Numbered from the stretch's first letter, positions 17,705 through 41,700 are shown. The stretch: DNA of 64,000 nt from Clostridium sp. CAG:632 (GCA_000431515.1 HF991345.1:4200-68199), one strand, 5' to 3'. The notes: a model not told the origin generated them from the sequence alone. Made by a program: numbers and translations.

Positions 17705-19258
17705 ATGAGGAATAAGGGTTACAATATGAAACTGCGGAAAATAATTGTTATAGTATTGATATGTATAATAGTGGCAACCGGACTGGGAGCCGGAGTCTGT
17801 ATATTATTAAAACAAAGCATGTTTGCTGATGCGGAAGGCGGAATACAGGTAGACAGCCAGCTGCCTTTGGCAGAGAGCAGTACAGAGCTGGTCGAAGAAG
17901 AAGTCACCTCAGATACGGAAACAGAAGAGCCGGAGCCGGAACCGGAGCTGATCCCGTATGAAGATCAGGCTCTGGTAGATCTGGAGGATTACTCCAATGC
18001 ACCGGCGGACAATGGGTGTCCATACTATATAAAGGTGAATCGGTTGAAAAATGTTGTAACCATTTATGGACTGGAGGATGGATATTATACGAAGCCGGTG
18101 CGGGCAATGGTTTGTTCTGTGGGAAAGAATAACGGAACACCGGCAGGGACGTATCGGACATCGGATAAATATGAATGGCGGTTTCTTGTAGGGGACGTAT
18201 ATGGGCAGTATGCCTATCGTATTTCGGGACATATTATGTTTCATTCGGTTCCATACTATTCTATGAATAAAGGAGATCTGGAATCAGCAGAATATAATAA
18301 ATTGGGCGAAGCAGCCTCGCTGGGGTGTGTCCGGCTGGCAGTCAAGGATGCCAAGTGGATCTATGATAATTGCCCGGCAGGAACGCTGGTTACGATCTAT
18401 GACAGTGAATATGCGGGACCGCTTGGAAAGCCGGTGGCGGAGAATCTGAATCTGGATGATGAACGGGCATGCTGGGATCCGACCGATCCGGATGAAGAGA
18501 ATCCGTGGCAGGAGGATGAGATGCGTATTTTAGGAGCAGGATCACGTACGATCGAGCGGGGATGTACCTTTGATCCGCTTGCCGGTGTAACGGCTGTTGA
18601 CCGGAATGGAAATGACATCTCTGACAGAGTAAAGGTAATAGGAAAGGTAGATCCGGAAACCATAGGAACTTATCCTGTGACTTATCTGATCGAAAGCTAT
18701 GGGGGTGAAACGGTTTCGCTTGAAAGTGAGATCGAGGTGGCAGATACAATGGCACCGACGATCGAGCTGCTACAGGATGAGGTGACATTGAATCGTACAC
18801 AGGCATCCGTAGCAAATATACAGAAAGCGATCGGAGAAGCCGTGAAGGTGACAGATGGTGTAGAAGAATTGTCCGCAGATTATCTGAATATAGATGCGGG
18901 CAGTCTGGAAGGACAGGATTATGGATGGTTCCAACTCCCGGTTCAGGCAGAGGATGAGGCAGGGAACTGTTCAGAAACCGTTCTGATAACGGTACGTTTG
19001 GATCGTCAGCCACCAGTGATTCATGAACCATCTCGGAAAGAGTTTTCCGGCAGTTCGGAGGAGAGTATCCGGGAACAGCTGCTGGCAGCGGTATGGGTAG
19101 AAGACGCATATAGTGGTGTGGAGGATGTTTCGGTATCTTGGACAAAAGAGGCAGGCGCAGATACATATACCATTCTGTATACGGCACGGGACCGATATGG
19201 TAATGTAAGCAGTGAATTCTTTTATAATTATGTGATTTCTTTTGAAAACGGTGAATAA
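17705..19258 (+). CDS. L,D-transpeptidase (YkuD fold) with C-terminal Ig-like repeats
   Basis: HSVPYY...SLGCVRL catalytic His/Cys motif. N-terminal TM anchor. The C-terminal 250 aa look like beta-sandwich repeats. Confidence 0.7.
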   Translation: MRNKGYNMKLRKIIVIVLICIIVATGLGAGVCILLKQSMFADAEGGIQVDSQLPLAESSTELVEEEVTSDTETEEPEPEPELIPYEDQALVDLEDYSNAPADNGCPYYIKVNRLKNVVTIYGLEDGYYTKPVRAMVCSVGKNNGTPAGTYRTSDKYEWRFLVGDVYGQYAYRISGHIMFHSVPYYSMNKGDLESAEYNKLGEAASLGCVRLAVKDAKWIYDNCPAGTLVTIYDSEYAGPLGKPVAENLNLDDERACWDPTDPDEENPWQEDEMRILGAGSRTIERGCTFDPLAGVTAVDRNGNDISDRVKVIGKVDPETIGTYPVTYLIESYGGETVSLESEIEVADTMAPTIELLQDEVTLNRTQASVANIQKAIGEAVKVTDGVEELSADYLNIDAGSLEGQDYGWFQLPVQAEDEAGNCSETVLITVRLDRQPPVIHEPSRKEFSGSSEESIREQLLAAVWVEDAYSGVEDVSVSWTKEAGADTYTILYTARDRYGNVSSEFFYNYVISFENGE

Positions 19259-19290
19259 AAAGACCGCCTCCGGTAACACTAGTACCAGAG

Positions 19291-20097
19291 GTGATGAAAA
19301 TGAAAGATTCCGTAGTGAAATTTTTAAGGGAAAACGGCTTTTATTTATCCTTTGGTGTCGGGGTTATCGCACTGGTCGCTGCATTAGCGGTTTACAATGT
19401 AAATACCAGTCGGAAATCACAGCAGAATCAGGAAATAAACTTAAATGAGCCGTTGGAACAGGACTTTGCAGATGCAAAGGATACGTCAGAGGATATTCAG
19501 GTACAGGAGACTCTTCAGGACGGAGATCTGGATGTACCGATGGATATGTGGAAAACAGAGGAGGCTGTGGAGCCTGAAAAATCCGTTGCTGCGGAAGAGG
19601 TAAACACAGAGGATACAGAAGCTGCAGCAGTTATATCCAATCAAGCGGTTGGATATGCGCCAATCGACGGACTGGAATTTCACGGCATAGAAGCAGTTAC
19701 CATGCCGGTTCTCGGAAATACGATTCTTCCATACAGCATGGATACAACCGTATATTTTAAGACTCTTGGAACATATCGATGCAATCCGGGAATGCTTCTT
19801 CAGGCACCTGTCGGCACGGATGTAGCATCTATCTGGCATGGACAGGTGGTAAAGGTTGAGGACAGCAGAGAATATGGAACGGTGGTAAGTGTGAATCTTG
19901 GAAGTGGCTATATTGCAGAATACGGACAGTTGCAGGATGTCCGGGTTGCAGTCGGAGATGAGGTTTTTCAGGACACGATTCTGGGAACCGTAGCAGAGCC
20001 GACAGCCTACTATCAGATGGAAGGTTCTCATTTATACTTTGCGATGACAAAGGATGATCAGCCGATCAATCCGATGGAAGTATTGCAGGTTGAGTAA
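19291..20097 (+). CDS. Membrane-anchored LytM/M23-domain protein with a degenerate active site (SpoIIQ-like architecture)
   Basis: N-terminal TM. The C-terminal M23 fold has SHLYF where the canonical HLH catalytic motif should be. Confidence 0.5.
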   Translation: MMKMKDSVVKFLRENGFYLSFGVGVIALVAALAVYNVNTSRKSQQNQEINLNEPLEQDFADAKDTSEDIQVQETLQDGDLDVPMDMWKTEEAVEPEKSVAAEEVNTEDTEAAAVISNQAVGYAPIDGLEFHGIEAVTMPVLGNTILPYSMDTTVYFKTLGTYRCNPGMLLQAPVGTDVASIWHGQVVKVEDSREYGTVVSVNLGSGYIAEYGQLQDVRVAVGDEVFQDTILGTVAEPTAYYQMEGSHLYFAMTKDDQPINPMEVLQVE

Positions 20098-20998: not shown

Positions 20999-21069
20999 GC
21001 AGATATAGTTCATCGGTAGAACGCTAGCTTCCCAAGCTGGAGAGGCGGGTTCGATTCCCGTTATCTGCT
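20999..21069 (+). tRNA. tRNA-Gly (anticodon CCC), no encoded CCA
   Basis: Folds by hand. Acceptor stem GCAGATA/TATCTGC, D-stem GTTC/GAAC, anticodon stem CTAGC/GCTGG with loop TTCCCAA, T-stem GCGGG/CCCGT with loop TTCGATT, and discriminator U. Confidence 0.7.
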
Positions 21070-21136: not shown

Positions 21137-22060
21137 ATGTGGATTTTATATGCATTCGGTTCTGCACTCTTTGCCGGGATCACGTCCATACTGGCGAAGT
21201 GCGGAATGAAGGACGTAGATTCTAATGTAGCAACCGCATTGCGAACAATCGTTGTACTGATATTTTCGTGGATCCTGGTTTTTGTAAAGGGAGTTCCGGT
21301 CACATGGAGTACCATAGATGGGAAGACGTTGCTGTTTCTGATTCTGTCCGGACTGGCGACCGGGGCATCCTGGCTGTGCTATTTCCATGCATTGCAGATT
21401 GGGGATGTCAATAAGATCACACCGATCGATAAATCGAGTACGGTGCTTACCATGCTGCTGGCAATGATATTTCTGCAGGAATCGGTGACTGTATTGAAGG
21501 TGGTATGTATGATTCTGATCGGAGTCGGAACTTATCTGATGATTCAGAAGAAGGAGGCACCAAAGGGGGAAGAAGTATCAGAGAGAAATGAGAATCCTCA
21601 AAAGACAGAGCTATTGTCCGACAGCCGGAAACCGTTTGCCGGCAGTTGGTTATTCTTTGCCTGCGGTTCGGCTGTGTTTGCCAGTCTGACCTCCATTCTC
21701 GGCAAGGTAGGTATTCAGAATATTGACTCCACACTGGGAACCGCGATTCGTACGATCGTTGTACTGATCATGGCATGGATTGTGGTATTTGTAACGAAGA
21801 CACAGGGAACAATCAGTACGTTAAATCGTTCCAATTGGTTATTCTTAGGGTTGTCCGGACTGGCGACCGGCGGTTCCTGGCTGTGCTATTATCGGGCATT
21901 GCAGACAGGACCTGCCAGTGTAGTCGTACCGATTGATAAACTGAGTATATTGATTACAATTGCATTCTCATATCTTGTATTCCGCGAAAAGCTGAATCTG
22001 AAATCAGGCATTGGACTGGGGGCTATCGTAGCCGGAACCCTGTTGCTTCTGCTGGCCTGA
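21137..22060 (+). CDS. EamA/DMT-family transporter (two tandem EamA repeats)
   Basis: Two homologous 5-TM halves (ILAKCGMKDVDSNVATALRTIVVLIFSWILVFV and ILGKVGIQNIDSTLGTAIRTIVVLIMAWIVVFV). Confidence 0.75.
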   Translation: MWILYAFGSALFAGITSILAKCGMKDVDSNVATALRTIVVLIFSWILVFVKGVPVTWSTIDGKTLLFLILSGLATGASWLCYFHALQIGDVNKITPIDKSSTVLTMLLAMIFLQESVTVLKVVCMILIGVGTYLMIQKKEAPKGEEVSERNENPQKTELLSDSRKPFAGSWLFFACGSAVFASLTSILGKVGIQNIDSTLGTAIRTIVVLIMAWIVVFVTKTQGTISTLNRSNWLFLGLSGLATGGSWLCYYRALQTGPASVVVPIDKLSILITIAFSYLVFREKLNLKSGIGLGAIVAGTLLLLLA

Positions 22061-24520
22061 GGTATAGATGATCATACCAATACCGAGCAGGATACCCACC
22101 AGAGATACGAGACCGCCCTTTTTGGCGCAAGGATATACGATCCGGATCGTGACATCCTCATCACCGATATATAGCAGATTGTTCTCTTCATAGATGGTCT
22201 GCTCTGTGAGGAAATTATCCTGATAAGCCAGTGTGGTATTCACATCCGCCTGCTCACTATGGATGGTGATGGTATTATCAGTAATGGTTAAGGTAAGCGG
22301 TATCAGCTCCCGGTTCGGGATCTGGTTATAATTGATTCCAAATGCATCATTTAGTACCGGCCACAGATCGGAGTTGTCGGCATTAATCGCGAAATAAGCA
22401 AGGTTCAGACCCAGATAATAGATATTTGGGTCTGAATCATTATATCCGAGAAATGGAATCGTCTGTCCCGCACTGTTTACATAGCCGAGTACCTGATCCA
22501 GGCCGCTTACATAGCCGGTCTGCCAGCTGGTATCACCATTCGGGATCGAGCCGGTAACGACGGTCTGATCATTATAGTTTAAGTTCGGCAGGTTTCCCTG
22601 AAAGGTGATCTGGCTCTGGGCCCTACCGAGGAATTCTTTCTGCATGACACCGTTTTCCGGTAAATGTGCACTGTCGATAACGACACGGGTACCGGAAGCA
22701 GCTACTTCTTTTAAGAGATTTTCTGCAGCTGTCTGGTTATGATATTCAAATCCACTTAAGAACAGAGTCTGATATTTGCATAATTCTTCAGTTGTGTAAT
22801 CATCAATATAGGCGGAATCTCCAATCGTAAATGCCGGATAATAGATGGACAATGTCTGGGCATAGGCTCCGATTGTCAGACCGAGATAATCGGTGCGAAC
22901 TCCGAACTGTTCCGGGGTATTCTTCCGGAAAAAATATGCCGTATCGGTAGTATCGATCAGCTGATAACCACAGAGCTCCGCATCGGACAGGAGACCGGAC
23001 TCATCCTTGACATAGGATTTTTTAACCAGGACGGTGTCATCTCCCATTTCGATACTGCGGTCAAATACATAGAGGTACTGCTCATGCTCCTGTGCTTCAT
23101 TCATGAGCATGATATTATCGGCAGTAGCCGCGCCCTGCCAGGCCCAGCCATACGTATAATCAATAGCATCATCGCCGGTGGACAGTCCCCAGGACGGATA
23201 AGAGCCATAGCTGCTCTGATCCATGAGGTTCGCACGCTGGATTGTGTAGTCCTTGAGCAACTGGGAGTCGGAGCGTGCCGCTGCTGAAGTTGGTGTATAG
23301 TATCGTGGCAGACAGGTGAGTGTAATACCGCTATCCAGAGTCAGCAGAGCAACAAGCAGGAGTGCATATTTCCGCTTAAGGGTTCTCCATTCCAGAAGGG
23401 AAAGGAAGAAGAATGCATAGGATAATGCGGTGATACGTGCCAGCCATAGGAAATCACCCAGTGGAAGGTGTGAAGTGATCGTAGTAGCAGCAGGTGTCGT
23501 ACCGAGCAGGGTAACGATGGCAAGGACAAAGCCTGCCTTCCTGCGCTTGTCTGCCAGAAGGATGCCGAATACGGCAACCAGAATGACAGAGATGCCATAG
23601 TAGTACGTATCAGCGACACCGGTCACACGGTTCATCGGATTTAAGGATGTGCTGAGAGGAAAGGTCAGCAGGTCTCTGGCACCGGAGCTGGAGTCCCCCA
23701 TAGACATCATTCCGCCGGAGATTGCCGGAATAAACCAGATACCGGAGGTCAGAATGCCGATCACCATAGCGGTCAAAGCCTCTGCATCCCGCCGGAATTC
23801 ACGGTTATGGATGTAGTCGAATAACAGAAACAGGAAGCTTCCGATTCCGACCAGAGCAGTTAACATCAGGTGGGAAACTGTCATTAAGGCCATGGAAAGC
23901 ATCAGCCCGATGAGGGCAAAGCGTTTCTTCCGGCGGACATAGGACCACAGAAAGAAGATGACATACGGAATGACCAGAGAGGTGATGATTCGTGGCATAT
24001 TTCCCTCACAGAAGAACACACGGATATTATCCGGAAGGAAGAACCACAGAATACTGCAGGCGGCCGCCAGGATCGGACGGTTGGTCAGCCGGCCGGTCAT
24101 CAGAAACGGAAGTCCGCCGAAGAAGATCATCACACCGGCAAACAGATAATAGGCATGCAGGATATCACCACCGGTAATCCACTGCAGAAGACTCATACAG
24201 TAGTAGGCGGAAGGAGCCCAGTAGCGGTAGAGCTGGATGCCGTTATACCATTTCTCGGAGTACAGGGGATACCAGTTCCCCTCCTGAATACTCTCATACA
24301 GGACCTTGGCCTTATACAGGTGGCTCCAGACATCATTGCCGGACGGTTCCCAGTGATTGCACCAGAGAAATGCGGTGAAGATACCGGCACACGCAAGCAG
24401 AATAAGGATACCAAGCACAAAAAGCCGGTTGCTCTTTCGGGTTGCGATATATGGATTTATCTGTGATGAAATCACAGGTTGATTGGTAGTCGGATTTGTT
24501 TCCATATGCTTATTCCTCAT
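22004..24520 (-). CDS. Large polytopic membrane protein with an extracytoplasmic domain and terminal TM (YfhO/GT-C-like); last gene of the exosortase-like operon
   Basis: About 12 N-terminal TMs, a roughly 400-aa hydrophilic domain, then a final TM (GGLVSLVGILLGIGMIIY). This matches the YfhO-type glycosyltransferase topology. The family assignment is tentative. Confidence 0.45.
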   Translation of the reverse strand: MRNKHMETNPTTNQPVISSQINPYIATRKSNRLFVLGILILLACAGIFTAFLWCNHWEPSGNDVWSHLYKAKVLYESIQEGNWYPLYSEKWYNGIQLYRYWAPSAYYCMSLLQWITGGDILHAYYLFAGVMIFFGGLPFLMTGRLTNRPILAAACSILWFFLPDNIRVFFCEGNMPRIITSLVIPYVIFFLWSYVRRKKRFALIGLMLSMALMTVSHLMLTALVGIGSFLFLLFDYIHNREFRRDAEALTAMVIGILTSGIWFIPAISGGMMSMGDSSSGARDLLTFPLSTSLNPMNRVTGVADTYYYGISVILVAVFGILLADKRRKAGFVLAIVTLLGTTPAATTITSHLPLGDFLWLARITALSYAFFFLSLLEWRTLKRKYALLLVALLTLDSGITLTCLPRYYTPTSAAARSDSQLLKDYTIQRANLMDQSSYGSYPSWGLSTGDDAIDYTYGWAWQGAATADNIMLMNEAQEHEQYLYVFDRSIEMGDDTVLVKKSYVKDESGLLSDAELCGYQLIDTTDTAYFFRKNTPEQFGVRTDYLGLTIGAYAQTLSIYYPAFTIGDSAYIDDYTTEELCKYQTLFLSGFEYHNQTAAENLLKEVAASGTRVVIDSAHLPENGVMQKEFLGRAQSQITFQGNLPNLNYNDQTVVTGSIPNGDTSWQTGYVSGLDQVLGYVNSAGQTIPFLGYNDSDPNIYYLGLNLAYFAINADNSDLWPVLNDAFGINYNQIPNRELIPLTLTITDNTITIHSEQADVNTTLAYQDNFLTEQTIYEENNLLYIGDEDVTIRIVYPCAKKGGLVSLVGILLGIGMIIYTSGQQKQQGSGYDSPQSNA

Positions 24521-25604
24521 CTATCATACTGATTACATAGGAGCGGGACGGTGTCTCACTCATTTCAATCATCAGGAAGAGCCAGCCGGCCTCTTCCAGG
24601 ATCCGGCTGATCTGTTCCTTGAAATAATCACAGCAGTTCTCTAGGGTCGGATTTATGACATCAAACGGTGGAATGCTGTTTAATTCCTGATCCTGATATT
24701 GCTGCATAAAGGCTTCGATTTTCTTTTCCAGATCACCGAACTGTACAAAATCATGCTGCATCTTGATAACATGCAGCGTAATCTCCCAGGTATGCGGATG
24801 CATGGCTCCCAGAACACCGTCAATATAGATAGCATGACGTGCATTCAGATAGAACTTGAACTTATACTGTTTATATAGATTACTCTTGCCGCGATGATGA
24901 ATAACAATCGGTGTACTGCCGGAGCCGTTTGCGGAAGAATCAGCGGATGACGCATGTTCCAGGGCTTCAAACTCCTTATTGCGCTTTAGCAGCTCGGCAC
25001 GGATAGTGGCCTGTTTTCGGTCACTTCCGGTCCAGGCACCGGTAAGAGCAGTGATGGCACCGATAAAGATTAAGGTAAGTGTGGCAAATAGAATGCTCAG
25101 ATAGACTTCATGGGTGTGAATCTGCTCCAGATACTGGGCTTCATCCGTGATGATGCCTGCGGTATAGGAATCATTCCCCACATAGAAATTATCGACAGTG
25201 ACAATAGCATTCTGTTCCTTCAGATGTTTCAGAAAAGCATCCCGCTCCTTTAACTCCTGCAGCGTCTCAGTCGTAGACGGGTTCTTTGCGAAGATAACGG
25301 TATGATTCTTGATCAGGAAGGCCCAGCTGCTTCCGGAGGCGGGTACAGAGCCTGCCATGTAGTCCTGAAGGTCTTTCTCCGATGCCCCCAGCTCGCACAT
25401 GGAGTTTAAGGCATCTGCCAGCTGATTGGAGTATTGCTGCTGTGTATTGCTGCCGGTTGTGATATAATCCCGTGAAATACTATTGATGATCAGGATATAT
25501 AATCCGAAAAAGATGCTGACGCAGACAGCACACAGGATCAGGATAACAGTCAATCGTTTTCCCGGCTGCCGGAACCATTTTAAATCGGCCTTATTCTTCT
25601 TCAT
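24510..25604 (-). CDS. Two-TM membrane protein with a C-terminal cytoplasmic PTPS/QueD-like T-fold domain
   Basis: TMs at about aa 15-40 and 170-195. The C-terminal 130 aa (FYLNARHAI...GAMHPHTWEITLHV) are paralogous to the 131-aa ORF at 28806-29201. Confidence 0.5.
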   Translation of the reverse strand: MKKNKADLKWFRQPGKRLTVILILCAVCVSIFFGLYILIINSISRDYITTGSNTQQQYSNQLADALNSMCELGASEKDLQDYMAGSVPASGSSWAFLIKNHTVIFAKNPSTTETLQELKERDAFLKHLKEQNAIVTVDNFYVGNDSYTAGIITDEAQYLEQIHTHEVYLSILFATLTLIFIGAITALTGAWTGSDRKQATIRAELLKRNKEFEALEHASSADSSANGSGSTPIVIHHRGKSNLYKQYKFKFYLNARHAIYIDGVLGAMHPHTWEITLHVIKMQHDFVQFGDLEKKIEAFMQQYQDQELNSIPPFDVINPTLENCCDYFKEQISRILEEAGWLFLMIEMSETPSRSYVISMIDEE

Positions 25605-26982
25605 TGGAGTTCACCTCTGCTTTCCATTTTTGGATTACGGCTGCTGCATTCTGAAAATCTCTCCGGATGATTGCAGCACATGCCTGACGTTCTTCTTTAA
25701 AATTACGCATCCGCCAGCTCTGTGTCCCCTTAATGGCATTGATGATACCGGCGAATCGGAACCAGAATACCATAAAGTTATATAATGGCAGAAGTACTGT
25801 CAGATACCATTTCCGCGCATAATAGCGCCGTAGTTTTTTCTCCTTCGACAGAAAGAGAATGATACAGATATACAGTAAAAAAGTAGCAAATACGTATAGA
25901 ATGTACATTAATATCACGGATTCAATGATCAGCTTGACCGGATAATTGATAAATGCCAGACAGATTAAGGCGAAATACCAGATCATCCGTGGGAAGGCGA
26001 AGGTATGATCATACATCAGAAGCCGTATTACAAAGTCTGAGACAAAGCCTCTGCCGAACCGCAGCCGGTTCTGACGGAACATATGCATAACCTCGATCTC
26101 ACCACGCTGCCAGCGCTGGCGCTGGATATATAGCTGATTCAGATCCTCGATCGGATCAACGAAGAAATAAGCATCATCGCAGAGTGCGACCCGTTCCCTT
26201 AGCATATCCCGGATCTGGAAGGTGACATGCGTATCTTCACAGATCGTATCGGTATTATATAACTGTGTTTTCAGAATCGCAGATTTCCGGAAGGCCGAGA
26301 AAGCACCGGACAGAGTGAAAATGCTGTTAAATTCTGACTGGAAATTCCGGCCGGCCAGAAATGCCTGGCAGTACTCAAAAAATTCCAGCTTCCGGAGTAA
26401 ACGCTTTGGAAACGGCTTGCTCCGGTCGATCAGTTCAGGATTTGTCATGATCGTGCCGGTCAGACAGTCGATATCGGTCTCCTGTTCAAACTGGCGCACC
26501 ATGTTGTAAAGGGCATCCGGATGGAGCATGCCGTCGCTGTCAATATGGATAATGTATTTTCCATAGCTGTTAAATAAGGCCAGATTCAGAGCCTTTGATT
26601 TACCCTGTTGGGAGTTCAGCCAGTTGATAGTCAGATCCGGAAAATCCTTCTGACACCGGCAGAAAACCTCAAAGCTGTTATCCGTGCTCTGATTATTAAC
26701 CAGCATGATATAGATCAGCTTGCTGTCATACGTAGAATCATTGACAGATTTAATACAGGAATAAAGAGTCTTGGCAGAATTATAAACCGGAATGATCAGG
26801 GTGATCTCCGGACAATATTCCAGCTTCAACTCTTTTTTATGAAAAATCCTGCGTTTCAGCAGGATAAAGAAATCTACAATTGTGGGTATGATCTCCATAA
26901 TGATCGGGATAATGACCCAAGCCATCCAAAACAGGATGGAGCTATGCAGAAAATCATTGATGATCGTCATATCGGAAAGCAC
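25591..26982 (-). CDS. Processive family-2 glycosyltransferase (PgaC/IcaA/NodC/cellulose-synthase-like)
   Basis: LIIPVYNS then DSD (DxD) then QRQRW (the QxxRW processivity motif). N-terminal TM plus a C-terminal cluster of TMs. Confidence 0.75.
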   Translation of the reverse strand: MLSDMTIINDFLHSSILFWMAWVIIPIIMEIIPTIVDFFILLKRRIFHKKELKLEYCPEITLIIPVYNSAKTLYSCIKSVNDSTYDSKLIYIMLVNNQSTDNSFEVFCRCQKDFPDLTINWLNSQQGKSKALNLALFNSYGKYIIHIDSDGMLHPDALYNMVRQFEQETDIDCLTGTIMTNPELIDRSKPFPKRLLRKLEFFEYCQAFLAGRNFQSEFNSIFTLSGAFSAFRKSAILKTQLYNTDTICEDTHVTFQIRDMLRERVALCDDAYFFVDPIEDLNQLYIQRQRWQRGEIEVMHMFRQNRLRFGRGFVSDFVIRLLMYDHTFAFPRMIWYFALICLAFINYPVKLIIESVILMYILYVFATFLLYICIILFLSKEKKLRRYYARKWYLTVLLPLYNFMVFWFRFAGIINAIKGTQSWRMRNFKEERQACAAIIRRDFQNAAAVIQKWKAEVNSNEEE

Positions 26983-27550
26983 CTACCTTCTGTCTGACTA
27001 CCTGTGCCCGCGTGAATACATAGAAATACAGGGCAATGGTACAGGCATAAAATACTAATCTCCCAACAAATGAGTGGGCGAGGAAATACATATCCTGTCC
27101 ACCCCAGTAAATCATCTGGCAGATAATAAAAATCCGTAATACATTTGCCAGAAAAATTCCAAAAACACCTACAATGCTTACCGCGATTTTTTCGTAAAAC
27201 TGGTAGGCAGGAAAAAACCAGAGCAAAGAAAGAAATGCAAAGGTTTCGATGATTCCGGAACATTCAAAATCAATATACAGGGAAATACTGGTTGTACCAT
27301 GGGCAATAAACAGCAGTCCCTTTTCAAAATAAGAAGAATACGTTCCGGTCAACTCACCGAGCAGACCGGACACGGCAGCAATTGCATTCTGCATAGGCAT
27401 AAGCAGAACCGGCTGCAGTGTTATGATGGCAATGATGAACAGTCCTACACTCCCTACGGTAAAATACCAGAAGTCCAGCTTGGCCCGCTTTAGAACCGAA
27501 AGCGCATAGATCCATACAATGGCGGTCAGGACAACAATCCAGTTAATCAT
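26954..27550 (-). CDS. Small exosortase-family polytopic membrane protein (XrtG-like)
   Basis: 198 aa, about 6 TMs. Conserved DFECSG (candidate active-site Cys) and NVLRIF (candidate Arg). Sits between a substrate-like protein and a GT2, as in exosortase systems. Confidence 0.45.
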   Translation of the reverse strand: MINWIVVLTAIVWIYALSVLKRAKLDFWYFTVGSVGLFIIAIITLQPVLLMPMQNAIAAVSGLLGELTGTYSSYFEKGLLFIAHGTTSISLYIDFECSGIIETFAFLSLLWFFPAYQFYEKIAVSIVGVFGIFLANVLRIFIICQMIYWGGQDMYFLAHSFVGRLVFYACTIALYFYVFTRAQVVRQKVGAFRYDDHQ

Positions 27551-28794
27551 ACGCGTGTTTCCTTTTTATGCTTGTAGGTATAGAAGCCGGCGATGCATAA
27601 AACAACCGCAGCCGCAACACCAATCCATGGTGCGGTGGAAGTGCCTGCCCAGGAAACCTCCTGACTGCCGATATTCGGATTTTTAATCGTAATGGAACTG
27701 ATCTGATCGGTGTTCAGACCGGTAATCCGCTGGAAGTCTTTCAGGCTGAATGCAAACTCCAGTTCATCACCCTTGGTATCCGGCTGATGAGTAGAATCAT
27801 AAATGGTCATGGCAGCTTCGCTGTCGCAATACTGTGTATAGTTAATAACAACACCCAGATTCTTATAGATTCCGTTCGGCAGGGAACGCATCTCGTTATT
27901 GTAGAAATCCCAGTCAACGGAATGATCTTCTTTTACCGGATAAACACCGAGAGCAAAGGACTGTCCGTTTATGGTCAGTGTCATCTGCTGGATCTGCATC
28001 TGTGTGGTATACAGGTCGTTCATAGCGAAATGTACATATACTTTTTCTCCGTCGGTATAGATCTGACCGACATGGATACTTTTTGTGTTATTGGAAGTAT
28101 ACGTAATCTCGGTGATTGGATATGACTTCCAATCATCGTAATAGCCATCAATGACAAGACCGGAATCTATCTGTGTCGGATCACCGGTGGAAGCCTCTGT
28201 GGAGGAATTTGTGGAGGAATCTGTGGAAGCCTCTGTGGAGGAATCCGTAGAAGCGGTCGTGGATTCTGTTGTCGTCGCTTCGGTGGTGTCGGAGGAACTG
28301 TCGGAAGAAGGAGTTACCGTTAAGGCCTGCCCCTGCCATGTGATACCAAGGGTATCGATCGAAGTTCCGTACGTAGAGAGCGGAACCTGAATCTTCCAGG
28401 AGGCTGTTGTATAGGTGCCGTTTGATGCACCGCTGTTCTGAACGGTACCGGAAGCTCCGGGAATCGGACTCCGCCAGGAATCACGTACCTGCAGAGACTG
28501 ACTCTCATCGGTATTTCCTGTGTTTAAGATAATATCTCCGTACTGACCGCCGACAGCAGCTCCGTTAACGGAGATACCGATACGTTCCTGAATATTATAG
28601 TCCCATGGCCCCTCATAAGTTAGATACAGATATGTATCATCTGCAGAGGCAGTCAGAGTACCTTTTTCGGTCTGAATGGTATTATCTGCACCATATGCAA
28701 GGGTGCCAAGGCTCATGCTGACTACAAAAATAAAACTGAGCAGGTATGTGAAAATAGATAATTTCTTATGATTCGTCTGTTTCATAGTAAACAC
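27547..28794 (-). CDS. Secreted Ser/Thr-rich protein with a C-terminal TM helix and basic tail (candidate exosortase sorting signal)
   Basis: Signal peptide. A 45-aa Ser/Thr/Asp/Glu linker. C-terminus ...STAPWIGVAAAVVLCIAGFYTYKHKKETRV. Confidence 0.5.
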   Translation of the reverse strand: MFTMKQTNHKKLSIFTYLLSFIFVVSMSLGTLAYGADNTIQTEKGTLTASADDTYLYLTYEGPWDYNIQERIGISVNGAAVGGQYGDIILNTGNTDESQSLQVRDSWRSPIPGASGTVQNSGASNGTYTTASWKIQVPLSTYGTSIDTLGITWQGQALTVTPSSDSSSDTTEATTTESTTASTDSSTEASTDSSTNSSTEASTGDPTQIDSGLVIDGYYDDWKSYPITEITYTSNNTKSIHVGQIYTDGEKVYVHFAMNDLYTTQMQIQQMTLTINGQSFALGVYPVKEDHSVDWDFYNNEMRSLPNGIYKNLGVVINYTQYCDSEAAMTIYDSTHQPDTKGDELEFAFSLKDFQRITGLNTDQISSITIKNPNIGSQEVSWAGTSTAPWIGVAAAVVLCIAGFYTYKHKKETRV

Positions 28795-28805
28795 TCCTTC
28801 CTGAG

Positions 28806-29201
28806 TTATTGCTGCTTAAGAACGGAATAGGCGGCCGGTAAATGAATCCGGCTGGATACTTCATAAATACTAAGTGGGTTCTCATAAATATCTAACTGGT
28901 ATAAATGGACTCCGATTTCAGCAAGACAGGATTTCAGATCTTCATAAAAGACATTGCCCATGTTTTCAATATTGGGAACCAGATGCTCAAATGCGGGCAA
29001 GTCATTTAATACGCAGTGGTCATAGGGCTCCAGATACGTCCGGACAACCCCGTCTATATCATAGAACATAATCTGCTCTGCCTGTGCATCACGGCTGACA
29101 TAAATTGTGATCGTAAAGGTATGCTGATGCTCGTGTTCTTTTCGGTAATCAAAGCTGTGAGTGGCATTAAAGCGATATTGATATTTATAGTATTTCTGCA
29201 T
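28806..29201 (-). CDS. 6-pyruvoyl-tetrahydropterin synthase / QueD-like T-fold protein (first gene of the operon)
   Basis: 131 aa. FNATHSF...EHEHQHTFTITIYV aligns with the QueD F.AAH...C.NLHGHNWKVEV core, with HxHxH in place of CxxxHGH. Confidence 0.5.
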   Translation of the reverse strand: MQKYYKYQYRFNATHSFDYRKEHEHQHTFTITIYVSRDAQAEQIMFYDIDGVVRTYLEPYDHCVLNDLPAFEHLVPNIENMGNVFYEDLKSCLAEIGVHLYQLDIYENPLSIYEVSSRIHLPAAYSVLKQQ

Positions 29202-29493
29202 AAAACCACCTCTGATACTCTCTCATTGTGCCAAGATTATAATACTTTTTTGTTGTAAAAACATTGTCAAATTCTGCTATATATTGTAATATCTTGTAAA
29301 AAAGTAAGAATCCTTCCTATATTATTCCATTTATGTCATATATCGTCATGTACGAGCCGTGACTCAAGTGTTTGCTTCTTAATTTTACTTGAACAATGTG
29401 AAAAGATTGTGTAATCTAAGAGGTACAGAAATCGGGGAAAATCGACAGATGGATTTCTGGAAAAAGAAAGATGGATACGAAAGGACGAGGGAA

Positions 29494-29940
29494 ATGAAAA
29501 AGTTTTTAGAAGAATTTAAGAAGTTTATCATGAAAGGAAACGCACTGGATCTGGCTGTCGGTGTAATCATCGGTGGTGCATTCACATCCATCGTCAATTC
29601 ACTGAATGCAGACATTATTACTCCGGTTCTGGCAATTTTCGGCGGCGTGGATTTCTCAAACCTGACATTGAAGCTGGGCAACGGTGATCTGGCACCGGTA
29701 CTTACCTATGGTAACTTCCTGACAGCAGTGATCAATTTCCTGATCACAGCATTTGTAATTTTCTGTATGATCAAGATCATCAACGGAATCGGTGATAAGT
29801 TCAAGAAGAAGCAGGAAGAGAAGCCAACAACCAAGAAGTGTCCATACTGCAAGAGTGAGATCGCGATCGAAGCAACCAGATGTCCGCATTGTACTTCGGT
29901 TCTGGAGGCGGCAGAGCAGACAGAGGCGGCTTCCAAATAA
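29494..29940 (+). CDS. mscL: Large-conductance mechanosensitive channel MscL with a C-terminal CxxC...CxxC zinc-ribbon extension
   Basis: MKKFLEEFKKFIMKGNALDLAVGVIIGGAF matches the MscL N-terminus. C-terminus is CPYCKSEIAIEATRCPHC. Alternative upstream starts exist at 29449 and 29389. Confidence 0.75.
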   Translation: MKKFLEEFKKFIMKGNALDLAVGVIIGGAFTSIVNSLNADIITPVLAIFGGVDFSNLTLKLGNGDLAPVLTYGNFLTAVINFLITAFVIFCMIKIINGIGDKFKKKQEEKPTTKKCPYCKSEIAIEATRCPHCTSVLEAAEQTEAASK

Positions 29941-30833: not shown

Positions 30834-33527
30834 ATGAAAGGGAAAGAGAACAGACAAATGAAACAGAAGCAGGTGATCGGGATTCTGGCACATGTAGATG
30901 CCGGAAAAACAACTTTATCAGAGGCATTGCTCTACACATCCGGTGGAATCAGGCGCTTTGGACGGGTAGATCATCAGGATGCGTTTCTGGATAATTTTGC
31001 CATGGAGCGTGAGCGGGGGATTACGATTTTTTCCAAACAGGCGGAACTCACCTTTGGGGATGTCCGTGTGACGCTTCTAGATACGCCGGGGCATGTGGAT
31101 TTCTCGGCAGAGATGGAACGTACTCTGCAGGTTCTGGACTATGCGATTCTGGTGATCAATGGTGCAGATGGTGTACAGGCACATACCGGAACACTCTGGC
31201 GGCTTTTGAAACAGTACCGGATCCCGGTATTTTTATTTGTAAACAAGATGGATCAGCCGTCTGCGGATAAGGAGCGGCTGATGGAGAATCTGAAGACACA
31301 GCTGGATGAGGGATGTATGGATTTTACGGACATCCGGCTGACGGATGAGAGTCTGGCCATGGGCAGTGAAGAGATGATGGAGGCCTATCTGGAGACAGGA
31401 GATATTCCTGAGGATGCGGTGAGAAGGGCCATCCGGAAACGATACATATTCCCATGTTATTTCGGCTCCGCGCTGAAGCTGACCGGAATTGAGGTACTGA
31501 TGGAGGGTATGGCACGGTATATGGAATGCCCGGTATACGGTGCGGAGTTCGGAGCGAAGGTATACAAGATATCCAGAGATGAACAGGGCAATCGTATGAC
31601 ACACCTGAAGATAACCGGTGGAAGCCTGAAGGTTAAGGCAGTCTTAAAACATCACTCCGGGAAAGAGGAGAAGGTGAACCAGGTCCGGATCTATTCCGGA
31701 GCAGGTTATCAGACGGTGCCGGAGGTCGCTGCCGGGGAGATCTGTGCGATAACCGGACTGGAGGAGAGTTACAGCGGAGAAGGCTTTGGGATAGAGCATG
31801 ATTCGGAGCTGCCGATTCTGGAACCGGTATTAAGCTACCGCCTGATTCTGCCAAAGGATTGTAATGTACATGAGGCGTGGAGTCAGTTAAAGCAGCTGGA
31901 GGAAGAAGATCCGCTGTTAAAGCTGGCCTGGCATGAGGCGACCGGTGAGATTCACATTCAGGTGATGGGAGAAGTGGAGCTGGAGGTGCTGAAAAGTCTG
32001 ATCGCAGAACGGTTCGGATATGATGTGACGTTCGGGGAAGGCAGTCTGGTCTATAAGGAAACAATCGCAACCAAGGTAGAAGGTGTGGGACATTTTGAGC
32101 CATTACGTCACTATGCCGAGGTGCATCTTCTGATGGAACCGGGAGAGTCGGGAAGCGGAATCCAGGTGGAAGCGGACTGCAGTGAGGATGTGCTTGCAAG
32201 GAACTGGCAGCGGCTGGTTCTGACGCACATTGAGGAGCGGAAGCATCCCGGAGTACTGACCGGCTCCGAGATCACGGATATGAAGATCACACTGATTGCA
32301 GGACGGGCGCATACCAAGCATACAGAGGGCGGGGATTTCCGTCAGGCCACATATCGTGCGATCCGGCAGGGATTGAAGAAGGCAGAAAGTGTTCTGCTGG
32401 AGCCGTATTATGAGTATCAGCTGACGGTGCCTACCGAGAATGCAGGACGGGCAATCTCGGATATTCAGCGGATGTCCGGCACCTTTGAGGTATCCGGGCA
32501 GGGAGAAGCGGAGACGCTTCTGACAGGTATGCTTCCGGTTGCGGAGGTATCCGGATATCAGGCAGAGGTACGGGCATATACGAAAGGATACGGAAGGTTT
32601 GTCTGTACTTTAAAGGGCTATTATCCTTGTCATAATCAGGAGGAAATCGTTCAGAAGATCGGCTATGATGCGGAGGCAGATGTGGAGAATCCGACCGGAT
32701 CGGTATTCTGTGCCCATGGGGCCGGATTTATCGTGCCGTGGAATGAGGTAGAGTCCTATATGCATGTGGAGACACAGGTAGAGTCTCCGGCAGAGATGCA
32801 TGGATCATTGGATAAGGCACGAAGCGGTGATCGGGTTTCTGTCTCAAAGGTCATTGCAGAAGAAGATGAGCTGGAGGCTATCTTCCGGCGGACTTATGGC
32901 GGCAGTATCCGGAAACCTTATGAGAACCGGTATGAGACTCAGGATGAGGACCGGTATTATACAGCGGATCCGGCAGATTCCGGGACAGGGAATGCCGGTG
33001 GAAAAGAGACATGGAATAAATATGCCGATACTGCCGGAAAGAAGCCGCGGGAGTCGTATCTTCTGGTGGATGGATATAATATTATCTTTGCCTGGAAGGA
33101 GTTAAATGAACTGTCAAAAACCGATCTGGCAGCGGCGAGAGGAAAGCTGATGGATATTCTCTGTAATTATCAGGGGTACCGGAAGATGAAACTGATTCTG
33201 GTATTTGACGGTTATAAGGTGCCGGGCAATCCGGGCGAGATGATAGAATATCATAATATTCATGTGGTGTATACGAAGGAGGCTCAGACAGCAGACCAGT
33301 ACATTGAAAAGCTGGTGCATGATATGGGAAGGAATTATGATATTACGGTCGCTACCTCAGACGGACTGGAGCAGCTGATCATATGGGGAGCCGGAGCCAG
33401 AAGACTGTCTGCCCGGGAATTGAAGGAAGAGGTGGAACGGGCAGATGAGGAACTGCGGGAACGGTATCTGGAGAGGCAGTCCTCCGAGAAGAACTACGCA
33501 TTCCGGAAAATCTTACAGGATAAGTAA
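30834..33527 (+). CDS. Fusion protein: Tet(M)/Tet(O)-like ribosomal-protection translational GTPase (EF-G paralog) with a C-terminal Rae1/YacP-type NYN ribonuclease domain
   Basis: Intact G1 AHVDAGKTT, G3 DTPGH and G4 NKMD motifs in the N-terminal GTPase region. Residues about 745-897 (LLVDGYNIIFAW...ILVFDG...VVYTKEAQTADQYIEKL...VATSDGLEQLIIWGAGARRLSARELKEEVE) align nearly residue-for-residue with B. subtilis Rae1/YacP, including its four catalytic Asp. One uninterrupted ORF. Confidence 0.7.
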   Translation: MKGKENRQMKQKQVIGILAHVDAGKTTLSEALLYTSGGIRRFGRVDHQDAFLDNFAMERERGITIFSKQAELTFGDVRVTLLDTPGHVDFSAEMERTLQVLDYAILVINGADGVQAHTGTLWRLLKQYRIPVFLFVNKMDQPSADKERLMENLKTQLDEGCMDFTDIRLTDESLAMGSEEMMEAYLETGDIPEDAVRRAIRKRYIFPCYFGSALKLTGIEVLMEGMARYMECPVYGAEFGAKVYKISRDEQGNRMTHLKITGGSLKVKAVLKHHSGKEEKVNQVRIYSGAGYQTVPEVAAGEICAITGLEESYSGEGFGIEHDSELPILEPVLSYRLILPKDCNVHEAWSQLKQLEEEDPLLKLAWHEATGEIHIQVMGEVELEVLKSLIAERFGYDVTFGEGSLVYKETIATKVEGVGHFEPLRHYAEVHLLMEPGESGSGIQVEADCSEDVLARNWQRLVLTHIEERKHPGVLTGSEITDMKITLIAGRAHTKHTEGGDFRQATYRAIRQGLKKAESVLLEPYYEYQLTVPTENAGRAISDIQRMSGTFEVSGQGEAETLLTGMLPVAEVSGYQAEVRAYTKGYGRFVCTLKGYYPCHNQEEIVQKIGYDAEADVENPTGSVFCAHGAGFIVPWNEVESYMHVETQVESPAEMHGSLDKARSGDRVSVSKVIAEEDELEAIFRRTYGGSIRKPYENRYETQDEDRYYTADPADSGTGNAGGKETWNKYADTAGKKPRESYLLVDGYNIIFAWKELNELSKTDLAAARGKLMDILCNYQGYRKMKLILVFDGYKVPGNPGEMIEYHNIHVVYTKEAQTADQYIEKLVHDMGRNYDITVATSDGLEQLIIWGAGARRLSARELKEEVERADEELRERYLERQSSEKNYAFRKILQDK

Positions 33528-41461: not shown

Positions 41462-41700
41462 TTGAAAATGTCATAGTTCTGTAAACCTTGTGGTCGGAGG
41501 CGGGAGCCTTCGTTTAAAGGAACCGGGTGAGAAGCCGGACTGTTAATCCCAGCCGTAATGGGGACGAGGAAGCCATGGATGCCACTGGAGCAATAGCTCC
41601 GGGAAGGCGGCTTCAGTAGGAAGAACCAGAGTCGGAACACAATACATGAGGGAGGAATCGGGAGAATATCTTTAGGCAAGAAGATGTTTATTTTTGTTGT
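41462..41700 (+). ncRNA. Cobalamin (B12) riboswitch
   Basis: CCGGGTGAGAAGCCGGACTG...AATCCCAGCC core. B12 box GCCACTGG...GGGAAGGC at 41581-41610. Confidence 0.7.

What the first reader, a model, noticed from the sequence alone, without database searches (positions are those of the whole stretch)
22004..29201. Six-gene minus-strand operon resembling a Gram-positive exosortase (XrtG-type) protein-sorting and polysaccharide system
Consecutive overlapping genes, each overlapping the next by 4-29 bp, encode six products in this order. First a PTPS/QueD-like T-fold protein. Second a signal-peptide protein with a Ser/Thr-rich linker and a C-terminal TM-plus-basic tail. Third a 198-aa polytopic membrane protein with an exosortase-like CSG motif. 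Fourth a processive GT2 with DxD and QRQRW motifs and TMs at both ends. Fifth a two-TM protein with another PTPS-like domain. Sixth an 838-aa YfhO/GT-C-like membrane protein with a large external domain. Gram-negative exosortases are co-encoded with EPS glycosyltransferases and C-terminally tagged substrates. The Gram-positive XrtG family is defined only by co-occurrence with a GT2 and PTPS-related proteins and has no characterised function or substrate. This locus supplies a full candidate set, including a putative substrate.
Basis: partly seen in the sequence, partly recalled or inferred. Interest (0 to 1): 0.8.

Follow-up and report, generated by a model that had tools for sequence, protein, structure and literature searches.

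The report
Catalogued XrtG exosortase surface-sorting operon
The system pairs a small membrane protease with one dedicated surface protein, a polysaccharide synthase, a second membrane glycosyltransferase and two zinc-site accessory domains.

Summary
All six minus-strand genes at 22004-29201 exist. Five score above NCBI's curated cut-offs for the XrtG system:
- XrtG: 207.7 bits against a cut-off of 102.75.
- XrtG-associated GT2: 656 against 364.
- Firmicu-CTERM substrate: 136 against 50.
- Two PTPS-related domains.

The gene order is kept in 80 related Clostridia loci, each with exactly one Firmicu-CTERM gene directly upstream of xrtG. The XrtG residues Cys97, Arg139 and His159 are conserved.

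Added detail:
- The sorting signature is G-[TS]-[SP]-[TS]-x-P, followed by a transmembrane helix and a basic tail.
- In other organisms the substrate is naturally fused to XrtG, and the PTPS domain is fused to the GT-C protein.
- About a quarter of the loci add GtrA/GtrB-like genes.
- This clade has lost the degenerate GGDEF domain of gene five.

- The first junction is a gap, not an overlap.
- The sixth protein is GT-C but not YfhO.
- The "putative substrate" family is already a curated model.

The locus would be auto-annotated, and a 99.65%-identical copy is already public. The function remains untested. Interest is modest.

The parts
29202..29388 (-). Intergenic region upstream of the operon, divergent from an MscL-type gene. 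It holds a Shine-Dalgarno-like AGAGGTGG at 29206-29213. The promoter is not located.
   Evidence: Sequence read. Promoter-like matches are no more frequent than in shuffled sequence (15 found against 18.4 +/- 4.9 expected). No Rfam element lies in 29100-29500.
28806..29201 (-). Gene A: a 131-aa soluble PTPS-related T-fold protein with no transmembrane segment and no signal peptide. The probable zinc histidines are H15, H25 and H27. The D61-H62 pair is kept. The PTPS/QueD catalytic Cys is absent (K21 at that position).
   Evidence: TIGR03112 at 86.6 bits (cut-off 69.35) and PF01242 at 61.3 bits. Alignment to 2oba. In 15 of the 80 related loci this domain is fused to the N-terminus of the gene-F protein.
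27547..28794 (-). Gene B: a 415-aa Firmicu-CTERM protein, the presumed XrtG substrate. Its parts are: a signal peptide; an optional N-terminal beta domain (aa ~39-160); a disordered Ser/Thr-rich linker (aa 161-213); a conserved beta-sandwich domain (aa 214-385, nt 27640-28155); the signature GTSTAP (aa 384-389, nt 27628-27645); and a transmembrane helix with the basic tail KHKKETRV (nt 27550-27627).
26954..27550 (-). Gene C: XrtG, a 198-aa exosortase-family intramembrane cysteine protease or transpeptidase with about 5 transmembrane helices. The candidate catalytic residues are C97 (nt 27260-27262), R139 (27134-27136) and H159 (27074-27076). It overlaps gene B by 4 bp (ATGA).
   Evidence: TIGR03110 at 207.7 bits (cut-off 102.75), TIGR04178 at 55.9 bits and PF09721 at 37.1 bits. 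C97, R139, H159 and R164 are each conserved in at least 97% of 81 sequences. The Cys-Arg-His triad of this family is described in bioRxiv 10.1101/2023.06.07.544157.
25591..26982 (-). Gene D: a 463-aa membrane-embedded processive family-2 glycosyltransferase (synthase type). Its motifs are D101, D148-S-D150 (nt 26533-26541), E249-D250 (26233-26238) and Q287-R-Q-R-W291 (26110-26124). It has one N-terminal and about four C-terminal transmembrane helices.
   Evidence: TIGR03111 at 656.1 bits (cut-off 363.95). Its nearest characterised family is PgaC/IcaA (TIGR03937, 135.9 bits, below the cut-off of 422), followed by NodC. The motifs are conserved in at least 97% of 74 sequences. Topology.
24510..25604 (-). 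Gene E: a 364-aa protein with two transmembrane helices (aa 21-39 and 169-187) flanking a ~129-aa external domain. A linker follows, then a cytoplasmic PTPS-related domain (aa 247-358, nt 24531-24866). That domain has the invariant His triad H257, H269 and H271.
   Evidence: TIGR03112 at 149.7 bits. Topology. The His triad, E274 and NPTLEN are invariant in 73 sequences. Where 2oba has the catalytic Cys, this domain has Leu, and the D-H pair is replaced by Q-D. In most relatives this gene is split into a sensor with a degenerate GGDEF domain plus a separate 150-aa PTPS protein. The fused form occurs in only 10 close relatives.
22004..24520 (-). Gene F: an 838-aa PF10131 membrane protein with a GT-C glycosyltransferase fold (aa ~28-405). 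Its first external loop spans aa 52-122 and carries D63, H67, K70 and W91-Y-N-G94. A large external domain (aa 426-795, nt 22136-23245) and a final transmembrane helix (aa 802-820) follow.

Best explanation
SHOWN. The locus is a complete XrtG-type exosortase system of a Lachnospiraceae-like Clostridium. Its six genes look like one operon (an inference from the tight junctions; no transcript data). They encode:
- an XrtG enzyme with its conserved Cys97/Arg139/His159;
- one dedicated Firmicu-CTERM protein;
- a catalytically intact processive GT2 synthase;
- a GT-C-fold glycosyltransferase;
- two PTPS-fold domains that keep the zinc-binding histidines but lack the PTPS/QueD catalytic cysteine.

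INFERRED MECHANISM.
1. Protein B is exported by Sec. It stays held in the membrane by its C-terminal helix and basic tail, with its conserved beta-sandwich domain (possibly CBM9-like) next to the membrane.
2. XrtG has its Cys97 and His159 at the outer membrane face. It cuts B at or next to the G-T-S-T-A-P signature that abuts the helix, forming an acyl-enzyme. It then passes B to an acceptor, most likely the polymer or a lipid or wall component, in a 1:1 partnership. The partnership is suggested by the 4-bp translational coupling here and by the natural substrate-XrtG fusions elsewhere.
3. The GT2 synthase D polymerises and exports a beta-linked glycan, probably GlcNAc-type, from a UDP-sugar.
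4. The GT-C protein F adds sugars outside the cell from a polyprenyl-phosphate sugar, onto that glycan or onto B.
5. The two PTPS-like zinc modules work on the cytoplasmic side as subunits docked to F (module A) and to the two-helix sensor (module E). They are not pterin or queuosine enzymes.

The expected outcome is a protein-decorated surface polysaccharide that promotes aggregation or adhesion.
For: Identity:
- All five NCBIfam XrtG-system models score above their curated cut-offs.
- PF09721 and PF10131 are hit.
- 739 homologues were found, several named XrtG by NCBI or JGI.

Conservation:
- The order ABCDE(E)F or FBCDE holds in 80 of 80 loci, each with one Firmicu-CTERM gene immediately upstream of xrtG.

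Catalytic residues:
- XrtG C97, R139 and H159 match the family triad.
- GT2 D148xD150, E249-D250 and QRQRW are each conserved in at least 97% of sequences.

Sorting signal:
- The signature, transmembrane helix and basic tail are present in all 80.

Substrate link:
- Natural Firmicu-CTERM-XrtG fusions exist in which the signature runs straight into XrtG transmembrane helix 1.
- They are found identically in independent samples.

GT-C:
- GtrB-like genes sit in about 18 loci and GtrA-like genes in 14 of the 80 loci. GtrA-F fusions also occur.

PTPS modules:
- A is fused to F in 15 loci, and the second PTPS-type domain (E2) is fused to the sensor here.
- The His triad is invariant, and the Cys is absent.

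Glycan type:
- The nearest characterised families are PgaC/IcaA and NodC.
- A UDP-GlcNAc-2-epimerase-like gene lies in 10 loci.

Phenotype hint:
- The XrtG system is up-regulated in self-aggregating L. plantarum (PMC12854382).
Against: - No experiment on any XrtG system was found.
- Cleavage, the cleavage site, the acceptor and any transpeptidation are all inferred by analogy. Even for ArtA and XrtA, one-step transpeptidation is unproven.
- The sugar specificity of D is unknown; it scores 136 bits against the 422-bit PgaC/IcaA cut-off.
- The window has no GtrA/GtrB genes to supply a lipid-linked donor for F.
- F is conserved in loci where B lacks the Ser/Thr linker, so that linker cannot be F's obligatory acceptor.
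- The role of the PTPS-like domains is a guess based on fusions.
Confidence: 0.6

Rival explanations
1. Release protease model. XrtG only hydrolyses the membrane anchor of B. B is shed and associates non-covalently with the polysaccharide made by D, through its conserved beta-sandwich domain. No transpeptidation and no covalent anchoring occur.
For: Only endopeptidase activity is experimentally supported for the exosortase/archaeosortase family, and one-step transpeptidation is unproven. B's conserved domain has a weak carbohydrate-binding-module-like fold, which would allow non-covalent retention. The substrate-XrtG fusions fit a self-cleaving release mechanism.
Against: The family shares the sortase-like Cys-Arg-His triad. 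In ArtA, cleavage is coupled to lipid attachment. A secreted protein would not need a dedicated protease plus a membrane anchor. Strict co-inheritance with two glycosyltransferases suggests a coupled product.
Confidence: 0.22
2. Glycoprotein model. The main product is glycosylated protein B rather than an exopolysaccharide. The PMT/STT3-like GT-C enzyme F O-glycosylates B on its Ser/Thr linker or on the GT[SP]T signature, and D supplies or extends the glycan. XrtG then anchors the glycoprotein, as with archaeal S-layer glycoproteins.
For: The best structural matches of F are protein glycosyltransferases: Pmt4, STT3B, PglB, AglB and DPY19. B has a 53-residue linker with 31 Ser/Thr, and its invariant signature is itself Thr/Ser-rich. 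ArtA substrates are glycoproteins.
Against: About half of the B homologues lack the Ser/Thr linker while F is retained. D has the QxxRW motif and multi-helix architecture of polymer synthase-translocases, not of a lipid-sugar synthase. Other top matches of F are cell-wall glycan transferases: AftA, AftD and ArnT.
Confidence: 0.13
3. Pterin or queuosine metabolism. The two PTPS-like genes make a pterin or 7-deazaguanine cofactor, and the rest of the locus is an unrelated membrane cluster.
For: PF01242 is hit by both proteins, and there are weak QueD hits.
Against: The QueD and PTPS equivalog models score far below their cut-offs: 36.8 against 89.25 and 31.2 against 125.5. The catalytic Cys is replaced by Lys in A and by Leu in E, and the Asp-His pair is lost in E. 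The domains are fused to a GT-C protein or to a membrane sensor. No GTP cyclohydrolase or other pterin/queuosine gene recurs at these loci.
Confidence: 0.02
4. The 198-aa protein is not an exosortase but a CAAX protease or a transporter, and the clustering is coincidental.
For: None found.
Against: TIGR03110 scores 207.7 bits and TIGR04178 scores 55.9 bits. The only hits listed are exosortase or archaeosortase families. PF09721 is the only Pfam hit. Co-occurrence holds in 80 of 80 loci.
Confidence: 0.01

Closest known systems
[quoted passage not shown]
   Same: Everything that defines it is present. All four models score above their cut-offs, the genes are adjacent, and the host is Gram-positive. 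This locus is a member.
   Different: There are only sub-family details. Gene E is a sensor-PTPS fusion that has lost the degenerate GGDEF domain found in most relatives; the fusion occurs in 10 close relatives only. There are no GtrA/GtrB genes. B carries an optional N-terminal domain and a Ser/Thr linker.
PEP-CTERM / exosortase XrtA-XrtB systems of Gram-negative EPS loci
   Same: The enzyme family is homologous (PF09721, TIGR04178). The C-terminal signal is tripartite and abuts the transmembrane helix. The system is genetically linked to polysaccharide synthesis. Some substrates have Thr/Ser-rich regions.
   Different: XrtG is much smaller (198 aa, about 5 helices) and matches only positions 82-251 of the 254-position PF09721 model. 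The signature is G-[TS]-[SP]-[TS]-x-P, not PEP. The conserved unit is a ~190-aa folded domain rather than a ~25-aa tag. There is one substrate per locus instead of many. There is no outer membrane.
Archaeosortase ArtA / PGF-CTERM (Haloferax volcanii)
   Same: Same enzyme superfamily and the same Cys-Arg-His triad. In ArtA, removal of a C-terminal helix is coupled to a new anchor.
   Different: ArtA attaches a prenyl-derived lipid to an S-layer glycoprotein. The acceptor for XrtG is unknown. XrtG scores only weakly on the archaeosortase models (18.6 bits against a cut-off of 100).
PgaCD / IcaAD poly-beta-1,6-GlcNAc synthases and NodC
   Same: Gene D shares the full-length architecture and the D, DxD, ED and QxxRW motifs. 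These are its best characterised relatives (135.9 and 58.5 bits).
   Different: D scores far below the equivalog cut-offs (422 and 550). The locus has no PgaB/IcaB deacetylase and no PgaD/IcaD partner. The sugar and the linkage are unknown.
GtrA/GtrB/GtrC-type three-component extracytoplasmic glycosylation (including CsbB/YfhO teichoic-acid glycosylation) and the PMT/STT3/ArnT GT-C enzymes
   Same: Gene F has the GT-C fold. About 18 loci embed a GtrB-like GT2 and 14 embed a GtrA-like protein, and GtrA-F fusions exist. The three-component model is described in PMC7117936.
   Different: F is PF10131, not YfhO (PF09586) and not GtrC. It has a distinctive 370-aa external domain resembling GH42-domain/ThuA folds. 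In many organisms it is fused to a cytoplasmic PTPS-like domain. The window has no GtrA or GtrB.
Sortase A / LPXTG
   Same: It is a functional analogue: a Gram-positive surface-protein signal made of a motif, a transmembrane helix and a basic tail, processed by a Cys-Arg-His enzyme.
   Different: The fold is unrelated. Sortase's active site lies outside the membrane and its motif is spaced away from the helix. Here the motif abuts the helix and the enzyme is polytopic.

Membership tests
XrtG exosortase system | Protein scores above the curated cut-off of TIGR03110 (XrtG) and of the exosortase/archaeosortase signature TIGR04178 | tested here: met
   207.7 bits against 102.75, and 55.9 bits against 23.
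XrtG exosortase system | Conserved Cys, Arg and His catalytic residues of the exosortase/archaeosortase family | tested here: met
   C97, R139 and H159 are invariant in 18 sequences and conserved in at least 97% of 81. The triad is defined in bioRxiv 10.1101/2023.06.07.544157.
XrtG exosortase system | Cognate Firmicu-CTERM (TIGR04145) protein with a signature, a transmembrane helix and a basic tail | tested here: met
   136.2 bits against 50. GTSTAP, the helix and KHKKETRV are present. The gene lies immediately upstream of xrtG in 80 of 80 loci.
XrtG exosortase system | Adjacent TIGR03111 glycosyltransferase and TIGR03112 PTPS-related domain proteins | tested here: met
   656.1 bits against 363.95; 86.6 and 149.7 bits against 69.35.
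XrtG exosortase system | XrtG-dependent removal of the substrate's C-terminal helix | not testable with these tools
   No experimental report was found. The only indirect support is the natural substrate-XrtG fusions.
GT-C glycosyltransferases (gene F) | Membership of a GT-C clan family, and the GT-C transmembrane fold | tested here: met
GT-C glycosyltransferases (gene F) | Conserved acidic catalytic residue in the first external loop | tested here: inconclusive
   D63 is at least 90% conserved in 57 sequences, but it falls below the 95% threshold in the 65-sequence locus set, where H67, W91, Y92 and G94 pass. Its catalytic role was not tested.
GT-C glycosyltransferases (gene F) | Polyprenyl-phosphate-linked sugar donor | not testable with these tools
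   The context supports it: GtrB-like and GtrA-like genes lie in 18 and 14 of the 80 loci, and GtrA-F fusions exist. The window has none.
   PF10131 was the only Pfam family reported at E <= 0.01.
PTPS / QueD enzymes (genes A and E) | PTPS T-fold domain with three zinc-binding histidines | tested here: met
   PF01242 at 61.3 and 51 bits. H257, H269 and H271 are invariant in the E-type domain. H15, H25 and H27 are present in A, where H27 is 91% conserved across the family.
PTPS / QueD enzymes (genes A and E) | Catalytic cysteine, and scores above the QueD (TIGR03367) or PTPS (TIGR00039) cut-offs | tested here: not met
   The Cys of 2oba aligns to Leu in E and to Lys in A. Scores are 36.8 and 25.2 bits against 89.25, and 31.2 bits against 125.5.
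PgaC/IcaA PNAG synthase (gene D) | Equivalog-level score, and partner genes (PgaD/IcaD, and a PgaB/IcaB deacetylase) | tested here: not met
   135.9 bits against 422.3. No such partner was found among the six products. The shared motifs are present, so D is a homologue with the same kind of chemistry, not an orthologue.

The most novel reading that the evidence does not exclude
XrtG may be a stoichiometric transpeptidase, effectively one enzyme per substrate molecule. It would covalently join a carbohydrate-binding surface protein to the nascent GlcNAc-type polymer extruded by the neighbouring synthase, producing a protein-polysaccharide conjugate in a Gram-positive envelope. The zinc-binding PTPS-fold modules would be a previously unrecognised class of cytoplasmic subunit. 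They would couple a membrane sensor and a GT-C glycosyltransferase to a small-molecule signal or a donor-modifying reaction unrelated to pterins.
Probability: 0.15. Interest if true: 0.7.

Novelty: already known. Interest (0 to 1): 0.3.

Why it matters
Exosortases are widespread, yet it is still not known what happens chemically after they cleave their substrate. XrtG is the smallest member of the family. It has a single adjacent substrate, and there is no outer membrane to complicate localisation, so it could be the simplest system in which to answer that question. Such loci are common in gut Lachnospiraceae, Coprococcus and lactobacilli, where they may shape aggregation and host interaction.

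This particular locus adds nothing new beyond being a clean, complete example. Its practical value is as a compact six-gene cassette for heterologous or genetic tests. The comparative observations made here give concrete, testable constraints on the mechanism. They are: substrate-enzyme fusions, PTPS-GT-C fusions, optional GtrA/GtrB genes, and loss of the GGDEF domain in this clade.

Tried and rejected
- Riboswitch or leader RNA upstream of the operon: nothing credible in 29100-29500 at E <= 1. There was no hit in the operon at gathering thresholds either.
- Promoters and terminators: the consensus scan was no better than shuffled sequence, so the promoter is left unassigned.
- PDB sequence search for gene F: no hit at E <= 1. 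The fold search was needed instead.
- Foldseek of the gene-B model against the PDB: nothing at E <= 1e-3.
- Pfam on the isolated B domains and on the external domain of E: nothing.
- A second Firmicu-CTERM protein in the 64-kb window or in the flanks of the 80 loci: none.
- GtrA/GtrB or GGDEF-sensor homologues in the window: none, apart from gene E itself.
- Other conserved neighbours across loci: only GtrB-like, GtrA-like, GGDEF-sensor and UDP-GlcNAc-2-epimerase-like genes, plus one sensor-like family. The window's flanking genes (MscL, SpoIIT, EamA, HAD, M23, YkuD) are not part of the system.
- Literature on XrtG, Firmicu-CTERM, PF10131 and the TIGR numbers: only annotation-level mentions.
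- The Haft 2012 paper could not be retrieved under the id I guessed.
- The pterin/queuosine reading and the CAAX-protease/transporter reading were both rejected (see rival explanations).

Full report
**Observation**

- A: 28806-29201, 131 aa
- B: 27547-28794, 415 aa
- C: 26954-27550, 198 aa
- D: 25591-26982, 463 aa
- E: 24510-25604, 364 aa
- F: 22004-24520, 838 aa

The junctions B/C, C/D, D/E and E/F overlap by 4, 29, 14 and 11 bp. A and B are separated by an 11-nt gap, so "each overlapping the next" holds for four of the five junctions. A good Shine-Dalgarno sequence (AGAGGTGG) precedes gene A. Promoter-like and terminator-like matches in the region are no more frequent than in shuffled sequence. 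No known RNA element lies upstream.

- ECSG at residues 96-99 of C.
- DSD148-150 and QRQRW287-291 in D.
- Two transmembrane helices in E and about eleven in F, with a 397-residue external region in F.
- In B, a 53-residue linker with 16 Ser and 15 Thr, a C-terminal helix and the tail KHKKETRV.

**Identity**

Against NCBIfam:

| Gene | Model | Bits | Cut-off |
|---|---|---|---|
| C | TIGR03110 'exosortase family protein XrtG' | 207.7 | 102.75 |
| C | TIGR04178 exosortase/archaeosortase signature | 55.9 | 23 |
| D | TIGR03111 'XrtG-associated glycosyltransferase' | 656.1 | 363.95 |
| E | TIGR03112 (same model) | 149.7 | 69.35 |

Pfam agrees. It also places F in PF10131 'PTPS_related' at 530 bits.

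The locus is therefore a full member of a system that is already curated and that NCBI's pipeline would name automatically. Homologues in public data carry the XrtG name. [quoted passage not shown] A public Logan contig (L081) carries the same operon at 99.65% DNA identity, with the same neighbours and an identical protein B.

**Conservation**

A scan of one genome per species found 152 relatives, and I examined 80 loci with 10-kb flanks. They come from Lachnospiraceae, Coprococcus, Oscillospiraceae, Ruminiclostridium and other Clostridia.
- Every locus has B immediately upstream of xrtG.
- The order is A-B-C-D-E(-E)-F in about 55 loci and F-B-C-D-E in about 16. Most of the rest are cut by contig ends; a few are variants (a second F paralogue, a split D, an internal D deletion).
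- Exactly one Firmicu-CTERM ORF occurs per locus, and none occurs elsewhere in the 64-kb window.
- An exhaustive HMMER pass over 1.84 billion cluster representatives found only 265 XrtG-like clusters, so the family is small and coherent.

**Anatomy of each part**

*XrtG (C).* C97, R139, H159 and R164 are each conserved in at least 97% of 81 sequences. This is the Cys-Arg-His set proposed as the catalytic triad of exosortases and archaeosortases (bioRxiv 10.1101/2023.06.07.544157). Hydropathy and the positive-inside rule suggest an N-out topology with C97 and H159 at the outer face. This topology is an inference.

*Synthase D.* D101, D148xD150, E249-D250 and QRQRW are at least 97% conserved. 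Transmembrane helices lie at both ends. The nearest characterised families are PgaC/IcaA (135.9 bits) and NodC (58.5 bits), both far below their equivalog cut-offs. D is thus a processive synthase-translocase. A GlcNAc-type polymer is the best guess, but it is not shown.

*PTPS-like domains.* The E-type domain has an invariant His triad (H257, H269, H271), together with E274 and NPTLEN. Where Pseudomonas PTPS 2oba has its Cys, this domain has Leu, and the Asp-His pair is replaced by Gln-Asp. A keeps H15, H25, H27 and D61-H62, but has Lys at the Cys position. Both score far below the QueD and PTPS cut-offs. They are zinc-site T-fold modules and not PTPS or QueD enzymes.

**Informative variants in relatives**

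1. In 15 loci the A-type PTPS domain is fused to the N-terminus of F, giving ~1000-aa proteins with PF01242 plus PF10131. A therefore works physically with F, on the cytoplasmic side.
2. In most loci gene E is two genes. The first is a two-helix sensor carrying a degenerate GGDEF domain (PF00990 at 34.3 bits in L069, weaker elsewhere). The second is a separate 150-aa PTPS protein. The window and its ten closest relatives have lost the GGDEF part and fuse the sensor directly to the PTPS domain.
3. About 18 loci embed a DPM1/GtrB-like GT2 and 14 embed a GtrA-like protein. GtrA-F fusions exist (L070, P0198). Ten loci add a UDP-GlcNAc-2-epimerase-like gene. This is the classical three-component logic for extracytoplasmic glycosylation (PMC7117936), with F in the GtrC position. 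The window has none of these genes.
4. Several cluster representatives are natural fusions of a Firmicu-CTERM domain and XrtG in one polypeptide. P0257, P0261, P0273 and P0260 have both models above their cut-offs. In these fusions the signature runs straight into XrtG's first transmembrane helix, for example ...VGSSSGP|YILVLLVWIYLLTVLKRAKLDFW. P0257 is identical on four contigs from at least three samples and is followed by the GT2 and a PTPS protein. P0273 recurs in two samples. These fusions are therefore real. NCBIfam already has a model for an 'XrtG N-terminal extension' (NF045489), so curators know of the extension. The fusions are the strongest available evidence that B is XrtG's direct partner. 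They also indicate that processing occurs at the outer end of the helix and that the relationship is 1:1.

**Mechanism**

Shown: the identities, conserved catalytic residues, folds, fusions and gene linkage described above.

Inferred:
- B is exported and held by its C-terminal helix.
- XrtG cleaves B at or beside GTSTAP and hands it to an acceptor.
- D extrudes a beta-linked glycan.
- F modifies that glycan or B from a lipid-linked sugar.
- The PTPS-like modules act as cytoplasmic subunits of F and of the sensor.

The expected result is a protein-decorated surface polymer that promotes aggregation. That fits the transcript-level association with self-aggregating L. plantarum.

The main rivals are a purely hydrolytic release of B, and a glycoprotein-centred reading in which F O-glycosylates B. 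The glycoprotein reading is weakened because F is retained where B lacks the Ser/Thr linker. Pterin or queuosine metabolism and a non-exosortase identity are both rejected.

**Novelty and verdict**

But this is an already catalogued system that is annotated by name, and a near-identical copy of this very locus is public. The claim that the locus newly supplies a substrate is not right, because the substrate family is itself a curated model.

The biology of XrtG remains experimentally untouched in the literature I could search. That keeps some interest alive for the family, not for this instance. I rate the interest at 0.3 and the novelty as "already known". The only local peculiarity is the sensor-PTPS fusion that lacks the GGDEF domain.

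Noticed in passing
P0257, P0261, P0273, P0260 (loci L082-L086): These are natural single-polypeptide fusions of a Firmicu-CTERM domain and XrtG. The G-x-[ST]-[ST]-x-P signature runs directly into XrtG's first transmembrane helix. They recur identically in independent samples and are followed by the GT2 and a PTPS protein. NCBIfam already has an 'XrtG N-terminal extension' model (NF045489).
   Followed up: partly
L057, L059, L064, L066, L068, L069, L071-L079 (e.g. L064 6023-9292): In 15 related loci the small PTPS-like protein (gene A) is fused to the N-terminus of the PF10131 GT-C protein, and the fused gene sits upstream of B instead of at the end of the operon.
   Followed up: yes
L020 11981-13090; L069 10860-12032; L064 12012-13178: In most relatives the two-helix sensor equivalent to the N-terminal half of gene E carries a degenerate GGDEF domain (SYDTF or CANEF in place of GGDEF). 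The window clade has lost this domain. This hints at a c-di-GMP-type input elsewhere in the family.
   Followed up: partly
L061 11920-12699 and 13895-14332; L010 11900-12769; L070 14407-17349; L064 3721-4845: Some XrtG operons embed accessory genes: a GtrB/DPM1-like GT2 (~18 loci), a GtrA-like protein (14 loci, fused to F in L070), and a UDP-GlcNAc-2-epimerase-like gene (10 loci). All three are absent from the window.
   Followed up: partly
window 22004-22062 versus L081 15100-15177: The window lacks about 78 nt that are present in the 99.65%-identical public contig. As a result the cytoplasmic tail of F after its last transmembrane helix differs (838 aa against 847 aa), and it reads 57 bp into the antisense of the convergent EamA-type gene. 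This could be a strain indel or an assembly difference.
   Followed up: partly
L001, L031, L048: Contigs carrying typical Clostridia XrtG loci are filed under 'Bacteroidales bacterium H4', 'Bifidobacterium catenulatum' and 'uncultured Alistipes'. They are probably mis-binned metagenome contigs.
   Followed up: no
L047 10545-11078; L057 10551-11919; L061 17315-19981: Three variant loci were seen. In L047 the GT2 is reduced to 43 N-terminal residues fused to a PTPS domain, which looks like an internal deletion. In L057 the GT2 is split into two ORFs. L061 carries a second, divergent PF10131 paralogue.
   Followed up: no
window 30834-33527 (+): This 897-aa ORF combines EF-G-like GTPase domains with a C-terminal NYN/YacP nuclease-type domain, according to the Pfam marks on the identical gene in L081. 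It is an unusual fusion.
   Followed up: no
window 10524-10765, 20999-21069, 41473-41663: A T-box leader (93.1 bits), a tRNA-Gly(CCC) lying 70 nt upstream of the EamA-type gene that abuts the operon, and a cobalamin riboswitch (53.2 bits).
   Followed up: no
window 17705-20097: A YkuD-type L,D-transpeptidase with a surface Ig-like domain and an M23 peptidase lie 2-4 kb from the operon. They are conserved only in the nearest relative (L081), not across XrtG loci, so they are not counted as part of the system.
   Followed up: partly
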